From Candidatus Woesearchaeota archaeon (GTDB lineage: Archaea > Nanobdellota > Nanobdellia > Woesearchaeales > ARS49), in NCBI GenBank assembly GCA_019322895.1, contig JAHWHZ010000001.1, forward strand, positions 459,528 to 523,527: DNA of 64,000 bases, read 5' to 3'. A program made the position numbers and the translations under genes. Positions 3,539 through 60,131 of this stretch are shown here, one piece after another (positions within the stretch are counted from its first letter, which is position 1; each line of letters starts with the position of its first letter). Below the pieces are notes generated by a model. That model saw only the letters and a list, made by a program, of their open reading frames with translations. It made no database searches and was not told the origin of the DNA.

Positions 3539-4366
3539 ATGGCATCTTTAAAACAAGCACTAAAGAAAAAATTGACAAAGAAAGAGCTGTCTGCAATGCA
3601 CTCCAGCTTTGATGTAGTTGGAAGCATAGCGATTATAGAGATTCCTGATGAACTAAAGAAAAAAGAGAAGATAATTGCCCAGACAATGATTGGTTTGTTC
3701 AAGCCTGTCAAGACAGTTGTCAAGAAAAGCGGCATTCATTATGGAAAATACAGGAGGCAGAAGTTAAAGGTTCTTGCAGGTGAAAAGAAAAAAGTTGCTG
3801 AATACAAGGAATCTGGTGTTCAGATGAAAGTTGACTTGGAAAAATGTTATTTCAGTTCAAGATTAGGCACAGAAAGACTGCGGATCGCAAAGCAAGTCAA
3901 GCCAAAAGAAAAGATTTTAGTGATGTTTTCAGGCGTTGCTCCTTATCCTTTGGTTTTAGCAAGGAATTCAAAGCCAGAAATCATCTGCGGCATTGAACTT
4001 AATCCAGTTGCGCACAAATTTGCTGAGGAGAATGTCAAGCTTAACAAGATGCAGGATAAGATAAAGCTGTACAAGGGCGATGTTGTCAAGGTTGTTCCTA
4101 AGCTAAAGAAGAAGTTTGACAGGATTCTTATGCCAATGCCAAAGACATCAATTACATTTCTGGAAACTGCTTTCAAGGCAGCGAAAAGAGGCGCAATCAT
4201 TCATTTCTATACTTTTGGAAGGGAGAAAGAGTTCAAGGAAATAAGGGACAAGATTAAAGCAGAGTGCAAGAAACACAAAAAGAAGTGCAGGATTCTTAGA
4301 ACAGTAAAGGCAGGCCATTATGCCCCAGGCGTTTATAGGGTGTGTGTGGATTTCAAATTGCAATGA
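3539..4366 (+). CDS. Trm5/Taw2 (Met-10+) family tRNA methyltransferase
   Basis: SAM-binding motif MFSGVAPYPL and an NLPK-like motif LMPMPK. The start is set at ATG 3539, immediately after the upstream stop. The tracker's 3449 start would overlap the previous gene by 89 nt. Confidence 0.6.
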   Translation: MASLKQALKKKLTKKELSAMHSSFDVVGSIAIIEIPDELKKKEKIIAQTMIGLFKPVKTVVKKSGIHYGKYRRQKLKVLAGEKKKVAEYKESGVQMKVDLEKCYFSSRLGTERLRIAKQVKPKEKILVMFSGVAPYPLVLARNSKPEIICGIELNPVAHKFAEENVKLNKMQDKIKLYKGDVVKVVPKLKKKFDRILMPMPKTSITFLETAFKAAKRGAIIHFYTFGREKEFKEIRDKIKAECKKHKKKCRILRTVKAGHYAPGVYRVCVDFKLQ

Positions 4367-4581
4367 CGCGCTTTGTCTGCTTCTTTAATTGCTTGTTTCT
4401 CAGATTTATCAGATACTGTTCAGCAACTGAAGACTCCGCCAGGCGTCATTGATATTTCCGATTACTTTAAATACTCTTATTCTATACAATATTCCAGTGC
4501 AAAGCGCAATGACGAGGTGAATCCCAATCGAGGCCTAGAAATAGGTCAGTGAGATATTTTGGAAGACCGAGCGCGCACAAA

Positions 4582-9109: not shown

Positions 9110-9188
9110 ACCTTAGTTTTGCCTTTTTATTCGCAAACCAAAACTATTTAAATCAGTCTATGCTAGCTTATTTTCATAGGGGGAAATC

Positions 9189-17890: not shown

Positions 17891-18096
17891 CTATCGAATA
17901 TAATTTTCAAAATCTATTCTAAATGACATAAATGTTTATATATATGCCATCATTTCTTTACTCCAGAATAGCAACGGACAAACAAGGGGTTTTGTTTGCG
18001 CTATTATTCCCCTCTTTGTAGTGCATCAAAACCGTAACATATAAATAGTGGTTCAGATTTACCTCAAGCAAATAATAAAAAAGGGGGGAGGTATAA

Positions 18097-18894
18097 ATGA
18101 TAGTAAAAGAAGAATTTTTAAGTAAATTACGTCGGTTTTTTTCTCTGAACTTGTATGAAGTGAAGATTTGGGCGTCATTGTTGTCCAGAGGTGTTGCGAC
18201 TGCTGGAGAGCTTTCTGATATCGCTAATGTTCCAAGATCAAGAAGCTATGATGTTCTTGAGAGCCTCGAGAAAAAAGGCTTTGTCATAATGAAGCTGGGC
18301 AAGCCGATAAAGTATATTGCTGTCCCTCCTACAGAGGTTATTGAGCGCGTCAAGAAGAACATGCACGAAGAGGCCCAGATGAAAGTAAAGAGGCTCGAGG
18401 ACTTGAAAAACACAGATGTTCTAGGCGAGCTTCAGACACTTCACAAGCAGGGCATTGAAGTGATTGAGCCGACTGACTTGAGCGGAAGCATCAAGGGAAG
18501 ACACAATCTATACAATCATTTAGAACTTACTATCAAGAATGCGCAAAAATCTGTTACAATAATGACTACTTCTCAAGGTCTTATGAGAAAAGTGGAAGGA
18601 TTAAAGCCAGTCTTTGAAAAATTGAAAAAGAAAGGAGTGAAGATAAAAATCGCTGCACCTTTGACAAGGGAGACAAAAAAGACTGTAAGCGAGATTGGTT
18701 CTGTGGCAGACGTGCGTAATGCAGATTCCAAGGCAAGATTCTGCATTGTTGACGGCAAAGAGATTGTCTTTATGGTATTGGACGATAAGGAGGTTCACCC
18801 GACATATGATGTTGGAATCTGGGTGAATTCCCCGTTTTTCGCCAAAGCCCTGGAGACCTTGTTTGATACAGCATGGAAGGGCCTAAAGAAATAA
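18097..18894 (+). CDS. TrmB-family transcriptional regulator
   Basis: N-terminal TrmB wHTH (LYEVKIWASLLSRGVATAGELSDIANVPRSRSYDVLESLEKKGFV) plus a TrmB C-terminal domain. Strong SD GGGGGAGG upstream. Confidence 0.6.
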   Translation: MIVKEEFLSKLRRFFSLNLYEVKIWASLLSRGVATAGELSDIANVPRSRSYDVLESLEKKGFVIMKLGKPIKYIAVPPTEVIERVKKNMHEEAQMKVKRLEDLKNTDVLGELQTLHKQGIEVIEPTDLSGSIKGRHNLYNHLELTIKNAQKSVTIMTTSQGLMRKVEGLKPVFEKLKKKGVKIKIAAPLTRETKKTVSEIGSVADVRNADSKARFCIVDGKEIVFMVLDDKEVHPTYDVGIWVNSPFFAKALETLFDTAWKGLKK

Positions 18895-22955: not shown

Positions 22956-23014
22956 GCTCTTGAGAATTACTGGTTCATTTAAAAAGCTTTTGTATCTTTG
23001 TATGTTTAGCAATA

Positions 23015-23072
23015 TTTCCAATAGCGCCTTGCGAAGTCTTGTGGCATAAATGCGGAATAACATAAATCTGGA
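23015..23072. repeat. intergenic repeat element, copy B (core CCAATAgcGCCTTGCGAAGT...AATGCGGA...CATAAATCTGGAAT)
   Basis: Roughly 60-nt direct homology to 46237-46296. Shares the GCCTTGCGAAGT core with 29459-29476 and with the reverse complement of 52788-52805. Confidence 0.7.
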
Positions 23073-23178
23073 ATAAAAGCGATTAAAAAAGTAGATGTAG
23101 CGCGCTATTGGTTAGCACCTGGTGCAGTCTTTTTAAACATAAGGTTTATAAAGCCTCTGCATTGCTTTATTAACTAAA

Positions 23179-24322: not shown

Positions 24323-24694
24323 ATGTATTCAGAAAAAGTGCTTAAGCATTTCAAGAAACCGCACAATGTAGGCAAGATTGAAGATGCTGACGGAATTGGA
24401 ACAGTAGGCAACAGGGCCTGCGGCGATGTCATGAAATTATACATCAAGGTAGAGGATAACAAGATTGTTGACATAAAGTTTGAGACAATGGGGTGTGCAG
24501 CTGCCATAAGTTCTTCTGATATGTTATGTGAAATGGCTAAGGGAAAAACTATCGAGGAGGCCTTAAAAATTACTAAAGACGATTTAATTAAGGAGTTAGA
24601 AGGATTGCCGCCAGTAAAAATTCATTGTTCCGTACTGGCTGTCGACGCATTACATGAAGCGATTAAAGAATACAAACAAAAACAAAAGAAATAA
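24323..24694 (+). CDS. iscU: Fe-S cluster scaffold IscU/NifU N-terminal domain
   Basis: 123 aa with three conserved Cys (GNRACGD, MGCAAAIS, KIHCSVLA). Confidence 0.85.
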   Translation: MYSEKVLKHFKKPHNVGKIEDADGIGTVGNRACGDVMKLYIKVEDNKIVDIKFETMGCAAAISSSDMLCEMAKGKTIEEALKITKDDLIKELEGLPPVKIHCSVLAVDALHEAIKEYKQKQKK

Positions 24695-24757
24695 TTTCTA
24701 CTAGCCACTGGACATTCTCTCGCAGTCTATTTAAAGACTAAATGCTCGAATATTATG

Positions 24758-24840
24758 AAAAGAGAATACGCAGAACTGCTAAATAATGTTTTTCGGTCTG
24801 CGACGCGAAAATCAATTACGCAGTTCTGCTCAGGCGTTCT
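24758..24840. repeat. long imperfect inverted repeat/hairpin upstream of the endonuclease gene
   Basis: AAAAGAGAATACGCAGAACTGC ... GCAGTTCTGCTCAGGCGTTCTCTTTT. Perfect 10-bp arms GCAGAACTGC/GCAGTTCTGC plus flanking AAAAGAGA/TCTCTTTT arms, with a loop of about 45 nt. Confidence 0.6.
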
Positions 24841-24915
24841 CTTTTCTCGAAAAAGTTGAGCTTTCCTATCAACTGCGGAAATCTCAACTACAAGATTGGG
24901 ATTTCGAGGTGTACT

Positions 24916-25785
24916 ATGGCTTTTAAAAAAGGAAACGTTCCTTGGAATAAAAATAAAAAAGGAGTTATGCCGATTCCTTGGAATAAAGGATTATCTAAAA
25001 ATAATTCTAAAATTGCTGAAATTTGTCAAAGAATCAGTCAAACTAAAAAATCACAATATCTGCATGGCGAACTTGTTGTTTGGAATAAAGGAAAAAATAA
25101 ATTTATTGATAAAAGATTAGCACAGCAAGGAAAAAAATCTTCTGAAACTAAGAAAAGAAGATACACAGCAGGTGACTTAGTTATTTGGAATAAAGGTAAG
25201 AAAAATGTACAAACTCCTTGGAATAAAGGCAGAGAAGGACTGCAAAAAGCATGGAATAAAGGATTAAATAAAGAAAATAATTCATTTATTCGTAAACAAG
25301 CAGAGTCTTTGAAAGGCAGCTGGGATGTAAAGTATGGAATACAGCATGCAGAGAAAAGAAAAGCAAAAGTTCGAGCGGCTCGTTTAAAGCAAACCTTTAA
25401 TAAAATCAGTAGCATAGAACTGACGACTAAAAAAATTCTTTTAAGTATAGGATGCAAAGAAAAACAAAGTATCAATAACTGCAAATCTTGGCTAGATTTT
25501 GCCTGTCAGCAATCTATTGAAGGAATTTGTGTGCCTGATTTCGTTTTTCCTCTGCAAAGTTTAATTATAAATTGTGATGGTGATTATTGGCATGGAAATC
25601 CTAAGCTCTTTAATGAATTAGATTACATTCAGAAAAAAACAAGAAAAAGAGATATTAGACAAAATGAACTACTTAAAGAAAAAGGCTGGCTTGTTCTGCG
25701 CTTCTGGGAACACTTCATTAAAGAAAACGAAGAAAGATACGCGAACGATTTAGCGAATATATTAGAGATACAATTAACTTTATAA
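24916..25785 (+). CDS. homing-endonuclease-like protein: six NUMOD3-type WNKG DNA-binding repeats fused to a Vsr/DUF559-type endonuclease domain
   Basis: Repeats VPWNKNKKG, IPWNKGLSK, VVWNKGKNK, VIWNKGKKN, TPWNKGREG, KAWNKGLNK. The C-terminus VPDFVFPLQSLIINCDGDYWHGN...RKRDIRQNELLKEKGWLVLRFWEHF matches the Vsr catalytic core. ATG 24916 has GAGGTG 4 nt upstream, and the tracker's TTG at 24856 is an alternative start. Confidence 0.6.
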   Translation: MAFKKGNVPWNKNKKGVMPIPWNKGLSKNNSKIAEICQRISQTKKSQYLHGELVVWNKGKNKFIDKRLAQQGKKSSETKKRRYTAGDLVIWNKGKKNVQTPWNKGREGLQKAWNKGLNKENNSFIRKQAESLKGSWDVKYGIQHAEKRKAKVRAARLKQTFNKISSIELTTKKILLSIGCKEKQSINNCKSWLDFACQQSIEGICVPDFVFPLQSLIINCDGDYWHGNPKLFNELDYIQKKTRKRDIRQNELLKEKGWLVLRFWEHFIKENEERYANDLANILEIQLTL

Positions 25786-25808
25786 ACTCGATTTCTTTTT
25801 CTAGCATT

Positions 25809-29390: not shown

Positions 29391-29456
29391 CTTGCCTCTT
29401 TTTATAAGATTGTTTTTTGTCTTTGACTATTTAAAACTTTCTTTGCAAGGTAAGCG

Positions 29457-29556
29457 GCAATGCTGCCTGGCGAAGTTATCCAAATGACAAGCGGTTTCAG
29501 ATAAATCTGATGTATATGTGATTTAAGCAGCGTAACGTAGCGCAGTATTGCTGCAA
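29457..29556. repeat. intergenic repeat element, copy D (full-length, about 100 nt, terminal inverted repeats)
   Basis: The 5' end is GCAATGCTGCCTGGCGAAGT, the centre is GCGGTTTCAGATAAATCTGA (near-palindrome TCAGAT..ATCTGA) and the 3' end is AGCGCAGTATTGCTGC, the inverse of the 5' end. Homologous to the reverse complement of 52713-52806. Confidence 0.7.
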
Positions 29557-29635
29557 TACAATAAACTTAACTCAACTCTTTACCCAAAAGGTTTATATAT
29601 TAAATACTCGATATTAACGTTAAAAGAGGGTTTAT

Positions 29636-38100: not shown

Positions 38101-39851
38101 AGATGGAAAGTTTCTTCCCTGGATTTGATGTGTATCCCAAGAAATCCCATTCAGTTGCAGTCAATGTTTCTGAAGTCAAGGGCTACACATATTATGTTGC
38201 CTGCAAAGACAAGGCAGAACTATTGTCATCATCAAAGCCGATCACATTCACTATTGACTTGACAGCCTTGTTTGCAATAAAGAGCACTACAGAGCCTTAT
38301 TCCAGCACAGAATTGTTTGACCTGCGTATTGAAAGCAATAAAAGGTCATTCTGCTTTTTTGGAGAAAATAAGAACAGCATCTCAAACTGCTTTGGGGCAT
38401 GTGAATTCACTAATGGCCATGCCCAGCCAATCACAAAGCCTGCTGGAACTTACACGTTCTTTGTTAAGTGCAATACCGGCTCTGGAGGGGAATCGAGCAA
38501 TGTGCTTAATATCACTGTGACAGTTGATACCAGCCCTCCTGTTATGGAGTATGTTGATGACAGCTCTACACTGCCTGGGGAGCCAGACATATCATGGTAT
38601 CCTGACAGGCTAAAGGTCAAGTTCAAGGGCAAGGATCCTGAGACAAAAGTCATAAAATATTATTATCTTTTAGAGACTGCATTTGCAAGAGAGCTTGTTG
38701 TGAACTGGACTCCAAGTCTTGAGCTAAATGGAACTTCTATCTTTGTAAAAGCAAACTTGTCTGACGGCCAGAGATATGTTTTTAGGGTAAGGCCTGTGAA
38801 TCTTGTCGGCCTGGTTGGAAATTTCAGTTCAAGTGACGGAGTGACAGTTGATTTGTCAAAAATGCCTCCTGTCTGTGCTAATGGAGAAAAAGATGCAAAT
38901 GAAACTGATATTGACTGCGGAGGCATGTGCGCAGGCTGTGCAGTAGGTAAAAATTGCCTGAAGAATAATGACTGTGAATCAGTGTATTGTGCAGAGAATG
39001 TTTGTGCAGAGCCTTCTTGTACAGATGGCGTAAGAAATGGCCAGGAGACTGATGTTGACTGCGGCGGTCCTGAGTGTCCGAAATGCATGCTTAACAAGAC
39101 ATGTGCAGAAAATACTGATTGTGATTCTGGCAGCTGCTTGTTTGGAAAATGTGCTGTTGATACCTGCAAAAATGGTGTTCTTGACAACACAGAGTCTGAT
39201 ATTGATTGCGGAGGTGCATGCCCATCAAGGTGCGGCAGTGGAATGAACTGCAACCTGCCAGGTGATTGCGCAGAAGAACTTGCCTGCATTGACAATACTT
39301 GTAGTGTTCCTCTTGACTTAGATGAAGATGGTGTTCCTGATTATCTTGATATCTGCCCTAATACTCTTCCAGGTGTTCCTGTTGATGCACAAGGATGCGA
39401 GATTGTTGAAGAGATTCCTGCTGCAGAAAAGCCTTCCTTCTTGTGGACTCTCATAAAGTTCTTGCTGATACTTGCAGTGCTTGGAGGCCTTGGATTTGGA
39501 GGATATTATGCTTACAAGAAAGGATATTTAGATAAAGTGATTGCAAAGTTCAAGAAAGCCCCTCCTGCTGCGCCTGAAATAAAGCCTGCTGCTGTAAAAG
39601 CAAGGCCAAAGCCTAAGCCAGTAGGGCCTACACCTGAAGAAAGGATTGCTGCCTTGCGAAAGTTTGCAAAAAAGAAGGAGCGGCCTGCAATAACAGAAGA
39701 GTTTGTTCCATTAGAGAAATTAAAAACTAAAAAAAGGCCTAAAACAAAGGCTTTTGAGAAGCTAAAGAAGCTTAAATCAAAGAAAAAAGCTTCTAAGAAA
39801 AAATCTAAAGAAGAGGCCATAGCAAAGCTGAGGAAGATAAGGAAAAAATGA
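35181..39851 (+). CDS. giant (1556 aa) type-I-membrane surface protein: Sec signal, Cys-rich modules, Ig-like regions, three or four novel 6-Cys tandem repeats, TSP-type-3-like Ca-binding motif, C-terminal TM and Lys-rich cytoplasmic tail
   Basis: Signal ...AAAVFAQQ. Repeats of the form CxxGxxNxxETD(I/V)DCGGxCxxC...C...DC.S..C....C at about 38866-39310. DLDEDGVPDYLDICPNT matches DxDxDGxxDxxDxCP. TM segment FLWTLIKFLLILAVLGGLGFGGYY. Tail KKAPPAAPEIKP...KKLKSKKKASKKKSKEE. Confidence 0.7.
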   Translation: MCRRLNKKILLISIMMILTALAAAVFAQQFGCCCDPIVRTGSIMNQSACVSPFVFVPIPAFGFTGCPALCNATNITAPPTVPPSCTAPGYKPPVSNLFVLPVKGEKAVQIDFNLPCPVNHVKIYRCQGSGCTNFTLLTTLGSSNSYKDESADLLWDEDYNYKIIANYKVSGDSTPATAEVNIGDLECWYQTTNDLFCIAPYYYDQFKSYLKKYGYKIASADDFKADFDSERDSVFNDFYRKSWRCNDMNQLSKPSPQVSCTEDEICISDGSTAKCVESVSCDLGGDFGLQSDVDDCEGEYGEIKYCFLDKSTTVVNKCYPCNPQMTCYDYHSEDACLRDNCGAGQCAWTDVFPDLGIGVCYDARFDACSLCQARPSSSASNKEGFNEVFDACTEEKARALSTDEIPCFFNKNTQEGQSCDYVDCTAYTQTQCSSPAGGIQLNSDNSIKVGSNDACQINVCQYSVETGCVKNANGASGVGWSDCLDAEDPELCEKDYFPPETIAVLTGEAPGKHDYIDLIINDMTSRTGKTKEMQGEPGYKTYLCIVSANNSCNIASAFPITTTKSRLIINDLNLQDGQDVVGKFSEGNNKVKFYSVDPNKNLEVIKEVIVFACDKCSGPKAINITVTGANEVNGKFYTRVLQPSIKITFDEPAELIASSLDKAGVLQSLASSPTSGLNYQYTFMPNNQLSEGVYRFSVNAKDDNGVSMDNPVVFDLYIDTTPPTVVITPEDGVEFETKDVAVALNFSEPVFFNKTTLDEVVFINEFAKESFPIYLSRELSSENSKYFSGIVTNLKAGLKIVNVDVTDYAGNVLRTKSYFSVFAGPPKIRMVHPSWGISSVFSFNVTVESSTKAKCKYIYDVPAPPPATQFDSLSDFDSSDGIYHVINQVTIPYGDTSTHSLHVYCKAGEFNISRQSFNLFIDSIAPKIVSAYANPDPIVEPVETGAEIYSTRLQVQTDEEGFCKYSADKQDFKEMESFFPGFDVYPKKSHSVAVNVSEVKGYTYYVACKDKAELLSSSKPITFTIDLTALFAIKSTTEPYSSTELFDLRIESNKRSFCFFGENKNSISNCFGACEFTNGHAQPITKPAGTYTFFVKCNTGSGGESSNVLNITVTVDTSPPVMEYVDDSSTLPGEPDISWYPDRLKVKFKGKDPETKVIKYYYLLETAFARELVVNWTPSLELNGTSIFVKANLSDGQRYVFRVRPVNLVGLVGNFSSSDGVTVDLSKMPPVCANGEKDANETDIDCGGMCAGCAVGKNCLKNNDCESVYCAENVCAEPSCTDGVRNGQETDVDCGGPECPKCMLNKTCAENTDCDSGSCLFGKCAVDTCKNGVLDNTESDIDCGGACPSRCGSGMNCNLPGDCAEELACIDNTCSVPLDLDEDGVPDYLDICPNTLPGVPVDAQGCEIVEEIPAAEKPSFLWTLIKFLLILAVLGGLGFGGYYAYKKGYLDKVIAKFKKAPPAAPEIKPAAVKARPKPKPVGPTPEERIAALRKFAKKKERPAITEEFVPLEKLKTKKRPKTKAFEKLKKLKSKKKASKKKSKEEAIAKLRKIRKK
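38866..39310 (+). repeat. tandem array of about 45-aa six-cysteine modules inside the giant surface protein
   Basis: PPVCANGEKDANETDIDCGGMCAGCAVGKNCLKNNDCESVYCAENVC / PSCTDGVRNGQETDVDCGGPECPKCMLNKTCAENTDCDSGSCLFGKC / DTCKNGVLDNTESDIDCGGACPSRCGSGMNCNLPGDCAEELACIDNTC. Confidence 0.6.
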
Positions 39852-46081: not shown

Positions 46082-46236
46082 TGGTAGAGCTGAAGATTCC
46101 TTATTTGCAGGGCGTCACTCCTGCAAGACTTTTTACTTTATTGACTTTGATTGTTCTTTTGGTTATACTCATAACTAAATTCTTTGTTTTGAAAGAGCAT
46201 ATGAGCTTGATTCCGCCTTCTGTATTGCCTTAGGTT

Positions 46237-46296
46237 GCCAATACTGCCTTGCGAAGTTCTCAGATGAATATGCGGATTCTGATACCTCGGGAATAC
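46237..46296. repeat. intergenic repeat element, copy 46(+)
   Basis: GCCAATACTGCCTTGCGAAGTTCTCAGATGAATATGCGGATTCTGATACC. Collinear with copy B at 23015-23072. Confidence 0.7.
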
Positions 46297-46325
46297 TTCT
46301 TAATTATTTGTATGTGAAGTATTCC
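46290..46325. other. perfect 10-bp stem-loop (GGAATACTTC ... GAAGTATTCC) with 16-nt AT-rich loop
   Basis: Read directly: GGAATACTTCttaattatttgtatgtGAAGTATTCC. Confidence 0.7.
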
Positions 46326-46390
46326 GGATGGTGCTCAAGAACCCTTGGTTCTTGACAAATCTGGTTTGCAGGAGGCATCTAGTGCATAAC

Positions 46391-46505
46391 ACAGCGCAGC
46401 ATTGGCTTATGCATAGCACGCTTCGTTCTGCTTCTATTATCGCTTATGTCCAGATTTATGATAAGTGGAATATTGCTTAGATAACTTCGCTAGGTGCTAT
46501 GCATG
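46391..46505. repeat. intergenic repeat element, copy 46(-), inverted relative to the 46(+) copy
   Basis: AGCGCAGCATTGG...CGCTTCGTTCT...CCAGATTTATGATAAG...AACTTCGCTAGGTGC is collinear with 52713-52806. Together with 46237-46296 it forms about 25-bp imperfect terminal inverted repeats (GCGAAGTTCTCAGATGAATATGCGG vs the reverse complement GCGAAGTTATCTAAGCAATATTCC). Confidence 0.65.
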
Positions 46506-46553
46506 TATGTTCTGCCATAAAGTTTATATATGAGAATTAGATTTTATATCAGC

Positions 46554-48179: not shown

Positions 48180-51100
48180 AAAAAAGAGGTGTAAGTGGGG
48201 CTTTTATGTGGGTTTCTATAGTTATAGGGCTCATTGTTATCTTGTCCATTGGAACAGTCCTTTACCAGGGAAGAGATTATCTCTCAGAAAAAATATTTGG
48301 AAAAAAATACATCTCTGCTGAAGAAAAAGAATTTGTTCCTTACGAAGTGGAGTTAGAAGGAGAAGTAAAGACAGCAGATGATTCTATGAAAGCTCTTGTT
48401 TGCGCTTTCAACAGTTTGGCTATTGAGAAAAAAGGCTGGCTCATTGAAGGAGTGTGTCCAGAAGGGTTTTATTCAAAAGAAGTAGAAGAGAAAAAGAAAA
48501 AAGAGGCAGAAGAGAAGAAAGCAGCAGAAGAAAAGAAAAAAGCAGAGGAAAAGAAAACAGAACCCACGCCTGCTCCAACAGGAGCAATGGTTTCAATAAC
48601 AGGCGCCGCAACTAAAGAGGATTGCGATGGTGCCTTGTATGGCCAGACTTGTGTTGAGTGCCGTGAAAGCGAGTTTGGCATGAAAACAATTACTTTGCCA
48701 GACAGCGAATATGATGCTACAAAAATGTTAGCTAAAGCTGCAGTTCAGTGCTGGAATGATTTTAAAGGTCCAAAAGGCAATAAAGGCGAAAAAAATATTC
48801 TTTGCAATAAGGTTGTCATACCAGGGACTGCACCTGGCTGGGTAATAACAAAAGAAGAGTTTAGAGAACGTCTAGAAAAATTTGAAGGAGAAGTAGGTTC
48901 TGACTTGGCAGGTCTTGGTACTGGAACACAGAATGTTGATTGGAAATTTGGCGAGGCAATTGTCTTAAATATTAAACAAGAATTTTATATCTGCGCTAAC
49001 GATGCTTACGATGCCAATCCGTTTGACGCAGATGAGATTTTCTTCACGCGAAATCTAAATGATTGTGAAGTTGAAACAAGAGGGCTTGCCGAAAAAGAAT
49101 TTACCTGCGAAATTAAAACTTTTGAGTTGCCGCAGGAGATTGGCAGCGACATCAGTCTTTTTAATTGGGCAGAAGAGTTCATTAACAAGTATAATGACCC
49201 GGAATATCTTGCGTATTACGAGTCTTTTCCAAGAGGAGAGGAAGCAGCATGGCATTTAGAAGAAGGCGATTTTATTGTTGATGTTATACTGTTCGGTGCA
49301 GTCATGAATACGTTGCCTGTGCTTGGAAAAGGTGTGCGCCAAGCTGGCGGATTATTTAGAAGAATATTCACTAAAAAAATTCTTGTGGAAGTGCCTGAAG
49401 ATATTGTTAAGAAAGCTTCTAAAAAAACCATAACAACAGTATTAGGGAAAACAGGCAAAGAGATTGGAACAGAACTCGGCGAACAAACTATAAAAGAACT
49501 GACAGATATGTTTGGCAAAGGCATGGAGCGCCAGCTAAAATCACAGATACTCTATGATAATATACTTAAAGAAGTGGGGGAAGATGCTGCAGAAACAGCC
49601 CGCCAGGCATTTCTCTCAAAATATTCTATCTATAAAGGAATGGGAAAGACAGACGACCAGATTGCAACTCTTCTGAAAAAAGAGATCCCAGAAGCAATTG
49701 GAAAGACACCTGATGAAGTCAGCGGACTAATCAAGAATGTGGATGACGTGATTAAGAAATCCCTGGCAGAGCTTAGCGAATCCGCTAGGAATAAGCAGAC
49801 TGCCAGGCAGTTTTTTACAAAATATCTCTTGAAAGAAGGCGGTGAAAGCCTCAATAAAGAAGCTATGGAAAATATATTAGCTACAGCCTTGACTAAAGAG
49901 ACATATGATAAGCTTGGCCCAGAAGCAGCAGAACAAATAATGCAGCGTTCCCTTTCATATACTGATGAAATTATTGATGTCACTAAAGGCACCGATGAAT
50001 TGTTAAAAACCCAGTCATTGATAGGCCGAACTTATGGTGCAGTTGTTGGCCAAGTTAATAAAGAATTCAACCTTTTTGCAAATATATTGAGCCAGCCAAA
50101 TAAAGATACCTTATCAAGATTTTTATTAGGAGTAACTCCCAAAGAAATTGGCGAAGCTGTTGCGCAAAAAGGAGGGGCATTAGGTGCTATCGGAGCAGCT
50201 GCAGCGCGTTATAATCCTATTCATATTTCAATAGGAACAGGAAAAATTGTTCCAATTCCTAGACCTTTGTTGGTACGTTCACTTGTTGGAACTGCATATA
50301 AGACTACGCGTACAGGCATTCGTTTTACCTCTGATGCTGCAGGGGCTGCATGGCATTCCAGGGCTGCGCGTTACACACTGGCATATCTCCTTGCAACGCA
50401 GATAGCTGAATCAGATGCAAAGAATGATAAATTAGGTTATAATGAGGAAAATACGCTTATCCTGCAAAAGCCTTATGATTTTGATGCTAAGGCAAAATAT
50501 TTTTTGTCAGATGAAACTAATAAGTATTACTTGAACTTGCACAAGTATCAGTATGGTGATGCGCGGTTCTTCCTTGCAAGTCCCTGCAAAGCAGACTTGA
50601 CAATACCTAAAACAGATTGTGATTGTAATATCTATTCTGGAGATTACATCTTGAAATCCAATAATCAGCCATTTGACCCTGCTTCTGTAAAATTCAAGAG
50701 CGATGACGCGATTCATACTGTGTATAAATATGATGAACTTTCAAAAGATGGTAAAAGAGCTGCAATGGATTATTGTTTAGTAAAAGACCAGGAGTTTGGT
50801 GTTTTATGCAACATATTTGTTATGAAGGATCCTGAAGCTTATGAAAAGTTTACAAAATATGTTTATAAGAATGTTTATAGCCCTGCAATTGATTTCATGC
50901 AAAAATATAAAGTAGATGAAGAAAAGATTGCTGATATCATTGAAAGAAAAGAAGGGGATGTATCGCTTACAATAGGCCACATAATTTCAGATGCTGGCGA
51001 AGAATTAAGGCCGCATTATGAATTTGGTGCTTTCTGCTTTTTTGCAGAAGGCGGTATTGGTCCTTGCTCAGTCAATATTCCTGGTGCGCTCACTGAGATG

Positions 51101-52381: not shown

Positions 52382-52711
52382 ATGAAAAAAAGAGCTGTTC
52401 AATTGTCTGTGCAGACAATGATTATTGTAGCTCTTGGCTTGATTGTTTTGCTTGTCTTGATTTTTCTTATCAGAGGCCAGATTCAGAAAGGTGCTGGACA
52501 GTATTTTGATATTGGCACGAAAATCGGCAAAGAGGCAGAGCTTGAGAAATGCCAGGGCGGATTCTTTACTACAAAACAATGTGCCACAAACTGCATAAAG
52601 GATCCTAAGCTGGATGAGAATTATTATTGGGAGGATATTGGCCCAAAAGACTGCAAGGCTCCTACGCCGGTATGCTGCCAAAGAGGAGATAAAAAAGCTT
52701 CTATAAAATGA
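52382..52711 (+). CDS. small Cys-containing pilin-like protein
   Basis: MKKRA|VQLSVQTMIIVALGLIVLLVLIFLI, with 6 Cys in the mature part. Confidence 0.5.
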   Translation: MKKRAVQLSVQTMIIVALGLIVLLVLIFLIRGQIQKGAGQYFDIGTKIGKEAELEKCQGGFFTTKQCATNCIKDPKLDENYYWEDIGPKDCKAPTPVCCQRGDKKASIK

Positions 52712-52712
52712 T

Positions 52713-52806
52713 GCAATGCTGCGCTTCGTTCTTATGCTGAAACCGCCTGTTACCTAGATTTATCAGAAATCACTCTTAACATTAAAGACTTCGCAAGGCA
52801 GCATTT
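52713..52806. repeat. intergenic repeat element, copy 52 (minus orientation relative to copy D)
   Basis: GCAATGCTGCGCTTCGTTCT...CTAGATTTATCAGAAATC...GACTTCGCAAGGCAGCATTTGC. Its reverse complement begins AAATGCTGCCTTGCGAAGT. It starts 1 nt after the upstream stop and ends 6 nt before a TATA-like TTTAAAAAT. Confidence 0.7.
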
Positions 52807-52858
52807 GCACGTTTAAAAATAAGAAACTTTTAAATAACAATTATGCTAATTCTTTATT

Positions 52859-59623: not shown

Positions 59624-60103
59624 ATGGAAAGAAGAAGTTATTCAGGATCCCGTAGAGGATTTGGATCCAGACCGCCTGTAAATCAGGGCGATGTATTAGA
59701 AGTAACCATAGAAGCTGTCGGCGAAAAAGGCGACGGAATTGCCAGGAAAGACGGATTTGTCTTGTTCATTCCTGGTGTCAAGGAAGGAGACCGCGTGAAA
59801 GTCAAGGTGACGCGCGTTCTAAGAAAGGTGGGATTTGCAGAAGTTGTTGGAGAAGGTGAAGCACCTGCTGAGGAAGCTCCTGCTCCAGAAGCAGAGATGC
59901 CTGCTGAAGAGCCTGAAGCAGAGCCAGAAACTCCTGTAGAAGACACAGAAGATTTTGGCGAAGAAGTCGCAGAAGAGGTGTCTGTGGAAGAAGCTCCTGC
60001 AGAAGAGGTTCCTGCTGAGGAAGCTCCAGAAGAACCTGAAGCTCCAGAAGAGCCTGCAGAAGAGGCTCCTGAAGAACCTGCTGAAGAAAAGCCTGCTGAA
60101 TAA
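59624..60103 (+). CDS. TRAM-domain protein with acidic Pro/Glu/Ala-rich tail
   Basis: TRAM core GDVLEVTIEAVGEKGDGIARKDGFVLFIPGVKEGDRVKVKVTRV. The tail is (PEE/AEE)n. ATG 59624 follows AGGTGA (the tracker's GTG 59612 lies inside the SD). Confidence 0.6.
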   Translation: MERRSYSGSRRGFGSRPPVNQGDVLEVTIEAVGEKGDGIARKDGFVLFIPGVKEGDRVKVKVTRVLRKVGFAEVVGEGEAPAEEAPAPEAEMPAEEPEAEPETPVEDTEDFGEEVAEEVSVEEAPAEEVPAEEAPEEPEAPEEPAEEAPEEPAEEKPAE

Positions 60104-60131
60104 GCAGTTAATTTTTTTTATCTTTTTTAAA

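What the first reader, a model, noticed from the sequence alone, without database searches (positions are those of the whole stretch)
29457..29556. Unannotated intergenic repeat family (at least 5 loci) with conserved cores and terminal inverted repeats
Copies or fragments occur at 4360-4520 (diverged), 23015-23072, 29457-29556, 46237-46296, 46391-46505 and 52713-52806 (the last matching the reverse complement of copy D), and a core-only hit lies near 18045. The shared blocks are (A)ATGCTGCCTTGCGAAGT, GCGGTTTCAG / CAGAT(T/A)(T/A)AT(C/G) and AGCGCAGCATTGC. The first and last blocks are mutually complementary, so each full copy can fold into a long-range stem. All copies sit in intergenic spacers, often immediately after a stop codon and just upstream of a TATA-like box. 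Candidates are a small structured ncRNA family, a MITE-like mobile element, or a shared operator-bearing regulatory cassette.
Basis: seen in the sequence. Interest (0 to 1): 0.75.

Follow-up and report, generated by a model that had tools for sequence, protein, structure and literature searches.

The report
Hairpin-shaped mini-transposon family in Woesearchaeota
The repeats are real: they are copies of a roughly 105-base, non-coding mobile DNA element (a MITE) that litters the spaces between genes in Woesearchaeota archaea, which is an ordinary kind of thing but with an unusual, structure-preserving hairpin design.

Summary
The repeat family exists. The window holds six copies: A 4355-4457(-), B 23013-23116(+), C 46233-46410(+, with a 69-nt internal insert), D 29452-29556(+), E 46405-46508(-) and F 52708-52812(-). 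The hit near 18045 is chance. The window comes from a Candidatus Woesearchaeota MAG, and the family turned up only in Woesearchaeota genomes and metagenomes (114 distinct copies collected).

Each copy has 10-17 bp complementary arms, an asymmetric junction (5' CC-TNG-CGNAG-T, 3' AAC-RNA-GCG) and a central ATAAATCTG block. The best reading is a MITE-like non-autonomous DNA transposon:
- Flanking 8-bp direct repeats are enriched (26% vs 4% in a control).
- Three filled/empty site pairs show one target copy in the empty allele.
- Copies B and D are missing from the closest relative (89% identical DNA).
- Occupancy in syntenic relatives is patchy.
- Nested and truncated copies occur.

RNA-gene signatures are absent: only the arms covary, G·T equals A·C, there is no orientation bias and no Rfam match. 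Gene promoters are the same with or without the element.

Several points remain unexplained. The arms covary across at least 8 subfamilies while non-complementary junction features are kept. No transposase partner was found. One orthologous copy is inverted. Arms and blocks are conserved at orthologous sites.

The parts
29452..29556 (+). Copy D (the flagged copy). 5' arm 29455-29466 CGGCAATGCTGC. Bulge CTG 29467-29469. GC-GAA-GTT 29470-29477. Core GATAAATCTG 29500-29509. AAC-GTA-GC 29534-29541. 3' arm 29542-29553 GCAGTATTGCTG (12 bp with two G·T).
   Evidence: CM hit of 88 bits, E 6e-22; sequence; fold.
29445..29576 (+). 132-nt block containing D that is absent from the closest relative, L156. 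It is bounded by TCTTTGCA on the left and TCTTTACC on the right; L156 has a single TCTTTACC.
   Evidence: BLAST breakpoints; alignment A7.
4355..4457 (-). Copy A (arms CAATGACGC/GCGTCATTG). It lies between the convergent TYW2-like and PAN-like genes. Its interior is inverted relative to the orthologous copy in L054.
   Evidence: CM hit of 81.5 bits; Pfam; inversion.
23013..23116 (+). Copy B (arms CCAATAGCGC/GCGCTATTGG), upstream of the NifS promoter.
   Evidence: CM hit of 85 bits; ortholog in L159.
23000..23130 (+). 131-nt block containing B that is absent from L156, bounded by a TCTTT direct repeat.
46233..46410 (+). Copy C (arms CCAATACTGC/GCAGCATTGG, one A·C mismatch), with a 69-nt insert (46285-46353) of two perfect small hairpins beside the core.
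   Evidence: CM hit of 45 bits across the whole model; folds.
46405..46508 (-). Copy E (arms CATGCATAGCAC/GTGCTATGCATG), tail-to-tail with C. It belongs to the same GCATAGCAC subfamily that shows clean TSDs in other genomes.
   Evidence: CM hit of 95.9 bits.
52708..52812 (-). Copy F (arms GCAAATGCTGC/GCAGCATTGC).
   Evidence: CM hit of 75.5 bits.

Best explanation
The repeats are copies of a non-autonomous DNA transposon of the MITE type, confined as far as seen to Candidatus Woesearchaeota (DPANN archaea).

A copy is about 105 nt long, or 124-178 nt with extra tails or inserts. Its parts, in order:
- a 10-17 bp 5' arm;
- a junction CC-T-N-G-C-G-N-A-G-T;
- a variable spacer;
- an ATAAATCTG block;
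- a second spacer;
- A-A-C-R-N-A-G-C-G;
- a 3' arm that is the reverse complement of the 5' arm.

Shown: copies insert into AT-rich intergenic DNA and duplicate about 8 bp of the target. They are present or absent at the same site in related genomes, they nest into or abut each other, and they get truncated.

Inferred: an enzyme encoded elsewhere, most simply a DDE-type transposase making 8-bp staggered cuts, mobilises them in trans. The arms, junction and central block are the cis-acting sites.

The arms vary freely but stay complementary, while a 3-nt bulge and a GNA-opposite-RNA loop are conserved. I therefore think the ends are recognised, at least partly, as a folded hairpin or cruciform rather than as a fixed double-stranded sequence. 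This last step is inference only.
For: Family and host:
- 29 of 37 pattern hits in 185,579 species genomes are in Woesearchaeota MAGs; the rest match the chance expectation.
- 114 further metagenome loci were found.
- The window's proteins are annotated Candidatus Woesearchaeota.

Target-site duplications:
- The best flanking 8-mer match is >=7/8 in 22 of 84 copies, against 4% for shuffled left/right flank pairs.
- Perfect examples are TAAGAGAG, GATAATTA and CAAATGTA.

Filled/empty pairs:
- L004 (filled) vs L132 (single TAAGAGAG).
- L026:6052 vs L032/L085.
- L006:3839 vs L032/L085.

Patchy occupancy:
- L102 and L157:1977 are filled where the window is empty.
- Window copies B and D sit in 131- and 132-nt blocks missing from L156, which is 89% identical over 21 kb.
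- 155 kb of syntenic relatives fetched through NifS hold only 3 copies.

Other mobile-element traits:
- Nested, tandem and truncated copies occur.
- Only 3 of 95 copies lie inside ORFs.
- A published census reports about 105 MITEs/Mb in a Woesearchaeal genome (PMC11602168). The window has 6 in 64 kb, about 94/Mb.
Against: - No autonomous partner with the same ends was found in 1.1 Mb of loci or in the window.
- The window's own copies lack clean 8-bp duplications. D has 6/8, and B has only TCTTT.
- The most similar pair within one MAG is 89.5% identical, so there is no sign of a very recent burst.
- Arms differ between at least 8 subfamilies that coexist in one genome yet remain 95% paired. 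That is not expected if one transposase reads a fixed double-stranded end.
- At two orthologous sites not chosen by my search pattern, arms differ at 2 of 36 sites and blocks at about 10%, while spacers differ by 30-50%. This hints at constraint after insertion, which a purely selfish fixed copy should not show.
- Absence of B and D in L156 looks like deletion between short direct repeats rather than a never-occupied site.
Confidence: 0.75

Rival explanations
1. A mobile element that the host has co-opted. The hairpin, as DNA cruciform, single-stranded DNA or RNA, together with the ATAAATCTG block, serves a host function such as a protein-binding site or transcript end-protection. On this reading the copies are kept by selection after insertion.
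For: - Orthologous copies keep arms and blocks while spacers diverge. D vs L157:15126 and B vs L159:9849 differ at 2 of 36 arm sites, about 10% of block sites and 30-50% of spacer sites.
- One copy is kept at the stop codon of a 147-aa ORF in five genomes, with its arm supplying the TGA.
- Compensatory changes are seen between orthologs (L010 vs L033).
Against: - The five-genome set was fetched with a pattern that requires the blocks, so its invariance is partly by construction.
- There is no orientation bias relative to genes: 23 co-oriented vs 30 anti-oriented in tandem contexts.
- Relatives lacking the copy keep the same promoters and genes.
- Only two unbiased ortholog pairs are available.
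Confidence: 0.25
2. A family of paralogous structured non-coding RNA genes (not mobile), with a long terminal stem closing conserved loops.
For: - The terminal stem covaries strongly: 95.2% of cells paired vs 79.4% in shuffles, with 107 double-change cells.
- Conserved unpaired blocks are present.
- Three copies carry extra hairpins, like expansion segments.
Against: - Target-site duplications and empty sites are found.
- Occupancy is patchy.
- There is no covariation outside the arms, and alifold energy is equal on both strands.
- G·T vs A·C counts are 19 vs 15 to 58 vs 53 under symmetric scoring.
- No Rfam family matches even at E<=10, and ARAGORN finds no tRNA.
- No promoter travels with the element.
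- K-turn and bulge-helix-bulge consensus are not met on inspection of the junction.
Confidence: 0.05
3. An invertible or portable promoter/operator cassette. On this reading the AT-rich palindromic core (TCAGATAAATCTGA) acts as a TATA-like or operator site, and the arms let the segment flip.
For: - The core is AT-rich and partly palindromic.
- Copy A is inverted relative to its ortholog in L054, with collinear flanks.
Against: - Three independent assemblies of the window strain all have the same orientation.
- All 65 near-identical duplicate loci are co-oriented.
- The downstream gene's BRE/TATA is conserved with or without the element.
- The core lacks the AAAG-type BRE seen at this genome's promoters.
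- The core motif outside the copies occurs at chance level.
- No recombinase gene was seen nearby.
Confidence: 0.05
4. A hairpin-dependent single-stranded-DNA mobile element, comparable to REPINs moved by RAYT/HUH enzymes or to integron attC sites. It would be recognised by shape and by extrahelical bases rather than by sequence.
For: - Free covariation of the arms, with a conserved 3-nt bulge and a GNA/RNA internal loop.
- A recurrent 'full copy plus 5' partial copy' arrangement.
- One flipped ortholog.
Against: - Regular 8-bp target duplications are typical of staggered double-strand target cuts, not of known HUH or integron reactions.
- No HUH, RAYT or IntI gene was seen.
- The elements are scattered in both orientations among housekeeping genes, not in arrays.
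Confidence: 0.15

Closest known systems
Prokaryotic MITEs in general (e.g. Neisseria Correia/NEMIS, enterobacterial ERIC/IRU, pneumococcal RUP, Sulfolobus SM elements). Named from my own knowledge; general definition in PMC3184786.
   Same: About 100-nt non-coding units, terminal inverted repeats, flanking target-site duplications, intergenic location, many copies, presence/absence between relatives, and the ability to fold into one long stem-loop.
   Different: No related insertion sequence is known. The arm sequence is not fixed but covaries among subfamilies. The most conserved parts are an asymmetric junction and a central block. The host is a DPANN archaeon.
bcr1 repeats of the Bacillus cereus group (about 155 bp, 5-bp direct repeats), as summarised in PMC3184786.
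   Same: A MITE-like repeat with flanking direct repeats and non-conserved genomic distribution. Compensatory base changes keep a long double-stranded structure.
   Different: bcr1 is bacterial and is reported to be transcribed. Here transcription is untested, and the mismatch spectrum shows no RNA-strand asymmetry. The TSD is 8 bp rather than 5.
REPINs / REP doublets moved by RAYT transposases (own knowledge).
   Same: About 100-nt hairpins made of two inverted halves, intergenic, evolving as populations with maintained pairing.
   Different: REPINs lack regular 8-bp target duplications and co-occur with a single-copy RAYT gene. Neither holds here, and none is known in archaea.
Integron attC sites (own knowledge).
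   Same: Recognition by folded structure with extrahelical bases while the stem sequence varies. They often lie right after a stop codon.
   Different: No R/L box consensus (GTTRRRY). No integrase and no cassette array in a single orientation. The neighbours here are syntenic housekeeping genes.

Membership tests
MITE (non-autonomous DNA transposon) | Short (<~300 bp), non-coding unit | tested here: met
   Core of 103-106 nt, up to 178 nt with inserts; no ORF fits.
MITE (non-autonomous DNA transposon) | Terminal inverted repeats | tested here: met
   Arms of 10-17 bp, up to about 25 bp; 95% of cells paired.
MITE (non-autonomous DNA transposon) | Target-site duplication of constant length | tested here: met
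   >=7/8 flank match in 26% of copies vs 4% in the control. A single target copy is present in three empty alleles. The signal is weak for the window's own copies.
MITE (non-autonomous DNA transposon) | Insertion polymorphism between related genomes | tested here: met
   Filled/empty pairs are found at seven sites; 0-2 copies per 21 kb in eight syntenic relatives.
MITE (non-autonomous DNA transposon) | A related autonomous IS with the same ends encoding the transposase | tested here: inconclusive
   None was found in 1.1 Mb of loci or in the window. Whole genomes could not be scanned.
Structured ncRNA gene family | Covariation supporting helices beyond a terminal inverted repeat | tested here: not met
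   Only arm columns covary among 91 copies.
Structured ncRNA gene family | Strand-specific signature (G·U tolerated, A·C not) | tested here: not met
   G·T 19-58 vs A·C 15-53 under symmetric scoring.
Structured ncRNA gene family | Match to a curated family | tested here: not met
   Rfam at gathering threshold and at E<=10 returned nothing meaningful.
Structured ncRNA gene family | Transcription as a discrete RNA | not testable with these tools
   No transcriptome data are available.
Inverton (phase-variable invertible segment) | Both orientations present within one population; a recombinase nearby | tested here: not met
   Three independent assemblies of the strain and 65 duplicate loci are all co-oriented. 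One inversion is seen between genomes about 77% identical. Reads were not available.
Integron attC | R''/R' boxes (RYYYAAC/GTTRRRY) at the stem base; arrays next to intI | tested here: not met
   The stem base is variable. Copies are scattered in both orientations among syntenic housekeeping genes.
REP/REPIN-RAYT | No target duplication; single-copy RAYT gene in the genome | tested here: not met
   8-bp duplications are present. A RAYT gene could not be searched genome-wide.
Archaeal K-turn (C/D-type) or bulge-helix-bulge RNA motif | 3-nt bulge directly followed by tandem G·A/A·G; or two 3-nt bulges on opposite strands 4 bp apart | tested here: not met
   Read from the consensus: the bulge is followed by two Watson-Crick pairs and then a 3x3 GNA/RNA loop. 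No C/D boxes are present.

The most novel reading that the evidence does not exclude
The element may be moved, and perhaps flipped, by an enzyme that recognises a folded single strand. The features read would be a stem of any sequence, a 3-nt bulge and a GNA/RNA loop that mark the strand, and the ATAAATCTG block. Insertion would still create 8-bp duplications. That would be a mode of mobilisation not described for archaeal elements. Some copies may also have been co-opted by these tiny-genome hosts.
Probability: 0.2. Interest if true: 0.6.

Novelty: new member of a known kind. Interest (0 to 1): 0.35.

Why it matters
It explains an unannotated repeat at about 94 copies/Mb in a very small, gene-dense DPANN genome. 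It also gives a covariance model and exact boundaries for masking or annotating such repeats in Woesearchaeota MAGs.

The element supplies stop codons to genes and comes and goes between close relatives, so it is a useful marker of strain-level genome dynamics.

The combination of freely covarying arms with conserved non-complementary features is a concrete lead. It could point to a structure-reading transposase or to a co-opted hairpin in archaea that cannot be cultured.

Tried and rejected
- Rfam at gathering threshold on the whole window, and at E<=10 on copies A, D and L004: nothing.
- ARAGORN: no tRNA.
- K-turn, bulge-helix-bulge, hammerhead/twister-type cores and H/ACA layout were compared by eye with the consensus. 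None fits.
- Internal helices: a column-pair scan and RNAalifold on 91 copies, both strands, found only the arms.
- Autonomous partner: I searched for matching 5' and 3' ends 0.2-8 kb apart, and for orphan arms. Only neighbouring short copies or truncated fragments turned up.
- Pfam on 20 window ORFs found no transposase. One DUF559 endonuclease gene was found.
- Viral contigs: one hit, also seen in the metagenome scan and short enough to be chance.
- Literature: nothing on Woesearchaeota MITE families beyond a census figure; its supplements are not held.
- Homologs of the 196-aa neighbour of D: none, so NifS was used instead.
- An apparent G·U excess (42 vs 15) in my first stem scan was an artefact of scoring G·T more leniently. 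It vanished with symmetric scoring.
- Block invariance in the five-genome ortholog set (p = 9e-9) is discounted, because all five were fetched with a pattern that requires the blocks.

Full report
OBSERVATION. ATGCTGCCTTGCGAAGT with up to 3 mismatches occurs 5 times against 0.27 expected. A three-block pattern occurs 5 times against 0.00 expected. Five copies align over about 105 nt with few gaps.

A covariance model built from 36 copies finds exactly these five in the window at E 1e-18 to 1e-24. It finds a sixth, copy C, once its internal insert is allowed. The copies are:
- A 4355-4457(-)
- B 23013-23116(+)
- C 46233-46410(+)
- D 29452-29556(+)
- E 46405-46508(-)
- F 52708-52812(-)

The hit near 18045 is at chance level. 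All copies are intergenic. Neighbours are ordinary archaeal genes: TYW2, a PAN-type AAA ATPase, a KOW protein, NifS and a Laminin_G surface protein.

HOST AND SPREAD. The window's proteins are annotated Candidatus Woesearchaeota, on contigs up to 705 kb. A pattern scan of one genome per species gave 37 loci. Twenty-nine are in Woesearchaeota MAGs; one MAG labelled Methanosarcinales is syntenic with them. The other 8 are in bacteria, about the number expected by chance.

ANATOMY. Each copy has a 5' arm of 10-17 bp, up to about 25 bp in one MAG. Then follow CC-T-N-G-C-G-N-A-G-T, a spacer of about 24 nt, ATAAATCTG, a second spacer of about 24 nt, A-A-C-R-N-A-G-C-G, and a 3' arm complementary to the 5' arm.

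When folded, the junction is a 3-nt bulge on the 5' side. Next come two G-C pairs, a 3x3 loop of GNA opposite RNA with the middle base free, and then GTT/AAC. The arms differ between at least eight subfamilies, for example CAATGCTGC, CAATGACGC, CAATAGCGC, GCATAGCAC, TTTAGCAC and CGCTACTGC. Four of these occur in this window. Pairing is nevertheless kept: 95.2% of cells are paired against 79.4% in shuffles, and 107 cells are changed on both sides.

MOBILITY. In the GCATAGC[AG]C subfamily the 17-bp arms are flanked by perfect 8-bp direct repeats (TAAGAGAG, GATAATTA, CAAATGTA). Over 84 copies, the best flanking 8-mer match is >=7/8 in 26%, against 4% when left and right flanks of different copies are paired.

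Three filled sites have an empty counterpart in a related contig that carries the target once: L004 vs L132, L026:6052 vs L032/L085, and L006:3839 vs L032/L085. Elsewhere a relative is filled where the window is empty (L102; L157:1977).

To test the window's own copies, I fetched eight syntenic relatives through NifS homologs, which is independent of the repeat. The closest relative, L156, is 89% identical over 21 kb. It lacks a 131-nt block holding B and a 132-nt block holding D. Each block is bounded by TCTTT; for D the boundaries are TCTTTGCA and TCTTTACC, against a single TCTTTACC in L156. The D site is also filled in L157 and the B site in L159, and both sites are empty in the other relatives. 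In total, 155 kb of these unbiased loci hold three copies.

Copies also nest, abut or are truncated. Within one MAG the closest pair is 89.5% identical and the median is 78%. The family is therefore old and slowly active rather than a recent burst. A published census reports about 105 MITEs/Mb for a Woesearchaeal genome (PMC11602168). The window has about 94/Mb.

RNA TESTS. There is no Rfam match at any threshold and no tRNA. Among 91 copies only the arm columns covary, and the consensus fold is equally good on either strand. An initial excess of G·T over A·C came from my asymmetric scoring. With symmetric scoring the counts are 19 vs 15 up to 58 vs 53. In tandem gene contexts, 23 copies are co-oriented with the genes and 30 are anti-oriented; only 3 of 95 lie in ORFs. 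No promoter travels with the element. A self-standing structured RNA gene family is therefore unlikely.

REGULATORY CASSETTE AND INVERSION. The BRE/TATA box after D (AAAGGTTTATATAT) is conserved in all relatives, with or without the element, so it belongs to the gene. The core motif is not enriched outside the copies.

One orthologous pair is flipped. The flanks of window copy A and L054:6019-6121 are collinear (93% and 82% identical), but everything between and including the arms is inverted. However, three independent assemblies of the window strain agree with the window, and all near-identical duplicate loci are co-oriented. This looks like a rare event, either recombination between the arms or re-insertion, and not a switch.

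WHAT REMAINS ODD.
- (i) Arms covary freely while non-complementary features are kept. That fits recognition of a folded strand, or arm-to-arm conversion, better than one transposase reading a fixed double-stranded end.
- (ii) In the two ortholog pairs not selected by my pattern (D vs L157, B vs L159), arms differ at 2 of 36 sites and blocks at about 10%, but spacers differ by 30-50%. This hints at constraint after insertion.
- (iii) One copy has kept its place at a stop codon, supplying the TGA, in five genomes.
- (iv) A 'full copy plus 5' partial copy' layout recurs.
- (v) Three copies carry two-hairpin inserts beside the core.

CAVEAT. Most collected copies were fetched with a pattern that requires CCTNGCGRAGT, AYAAATCT and AGCG. 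Invariance of those blocks in my alignments, including the p = 9e-9 contrast, is therefore partly by construction. The nine non-pattern copies, and the three copies from unbiased loci, show single changes in these blocks. The arm, TSD, orientation and empty-site results do not depend on the pattern.

COMPARISON AND VERDICT. By definition-level features the family is a MITE: small, non-coding, with TIRs, TSDs and insertion polymorphism. The partner transposase is unidentified. The nearest described analogues are bacterial MITE-like repeats with structure-preserving changes, such as bcr1 (PMC3184786), and, from my own knowledge, ERIC, Correia and RUP elements. REPINs and attC sites resemble it in shape-based logic but fail on TSDs, partner genes and arrangement.

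It is a new member of a known kind. The reading that it uses a structure-dependent mobilisation or has been co-opted is not excluded (about 0.2).

Noticed in passing
window 4470-4556 (read on the minus strand: GTGCGCGCTCGG...CGTCATTGCGCTTTGCAC): This intergenic block next to copy A is 100% identical over about 83 nt to L054, whose coding DNA is only about 77% identical. Rfam and tRNA searches found nothing, and the predicted fold is not unusually stable. It may be an unknown small RNA or a protein-binding site. It contains an arm-like CAAAGCGCAATGACG string.
   Followed up: partly
window 24688-25808 (ORF 24856-25785): This 1.1-kb segment between NifU and ThiI is absent from six of the eight syntenic relatives fetched through NifS (L157-L163 bar none of L156/window). 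Its ORF ends in a DUF559/Vsr-like endonuclease domain. L156 has a shorter DUF559 gene at the same spot. It looks like a selfish endonuclease gene insertion.
   Followed up: partly
window 46285-46353; L018:1290-1355; L113 (within 150-323): Three independent copies carry 60-75 nt inserts beside the ATAAATCTG block. Each insert is made of two perfect 8-11 bp hairpins of unrelated sequence. Their origin is unknown; they could be another tiny palindromic element or local expansion.
   Followed up: partly
window 17968-18012: A hairpin, GAATAGCAACGGACAAAC...GTTTGCGCTATTATTC, lies between a promoter-like box (17931-17945) and the TrmB-like gene at 18097. Its ends resemble the element's arms, but the model does not call it a family member.
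   Followed up: no
window 9110-9140 vs L102:428-533: Where L102 carries a copy, the window has only a short hairpin-like remnant (AGTTTTGCC...CGCAAAC). This could be an internally deleted copy or an excision footprint.
   Followed up: no
L010:2844-2990 and L033 (orthologous loci): The 5' arm, the 3' arm and the arm of the adjacent partial copy all differ between the two genomes in the same way (AATGCTGC vs AATGATGC). This suggests concerted change of three arms at one locus.
   Followed up: no
window 59842-60107, 1067-1192, 48480-48557, 38874-39214: Coding-region repeats. There are E/P/A- and K/E-rich low-complexity tracts, and three repeats of about 145 nt inside the 1556-aa surface protein. 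They are unrelated to the family.
   Followed up: no
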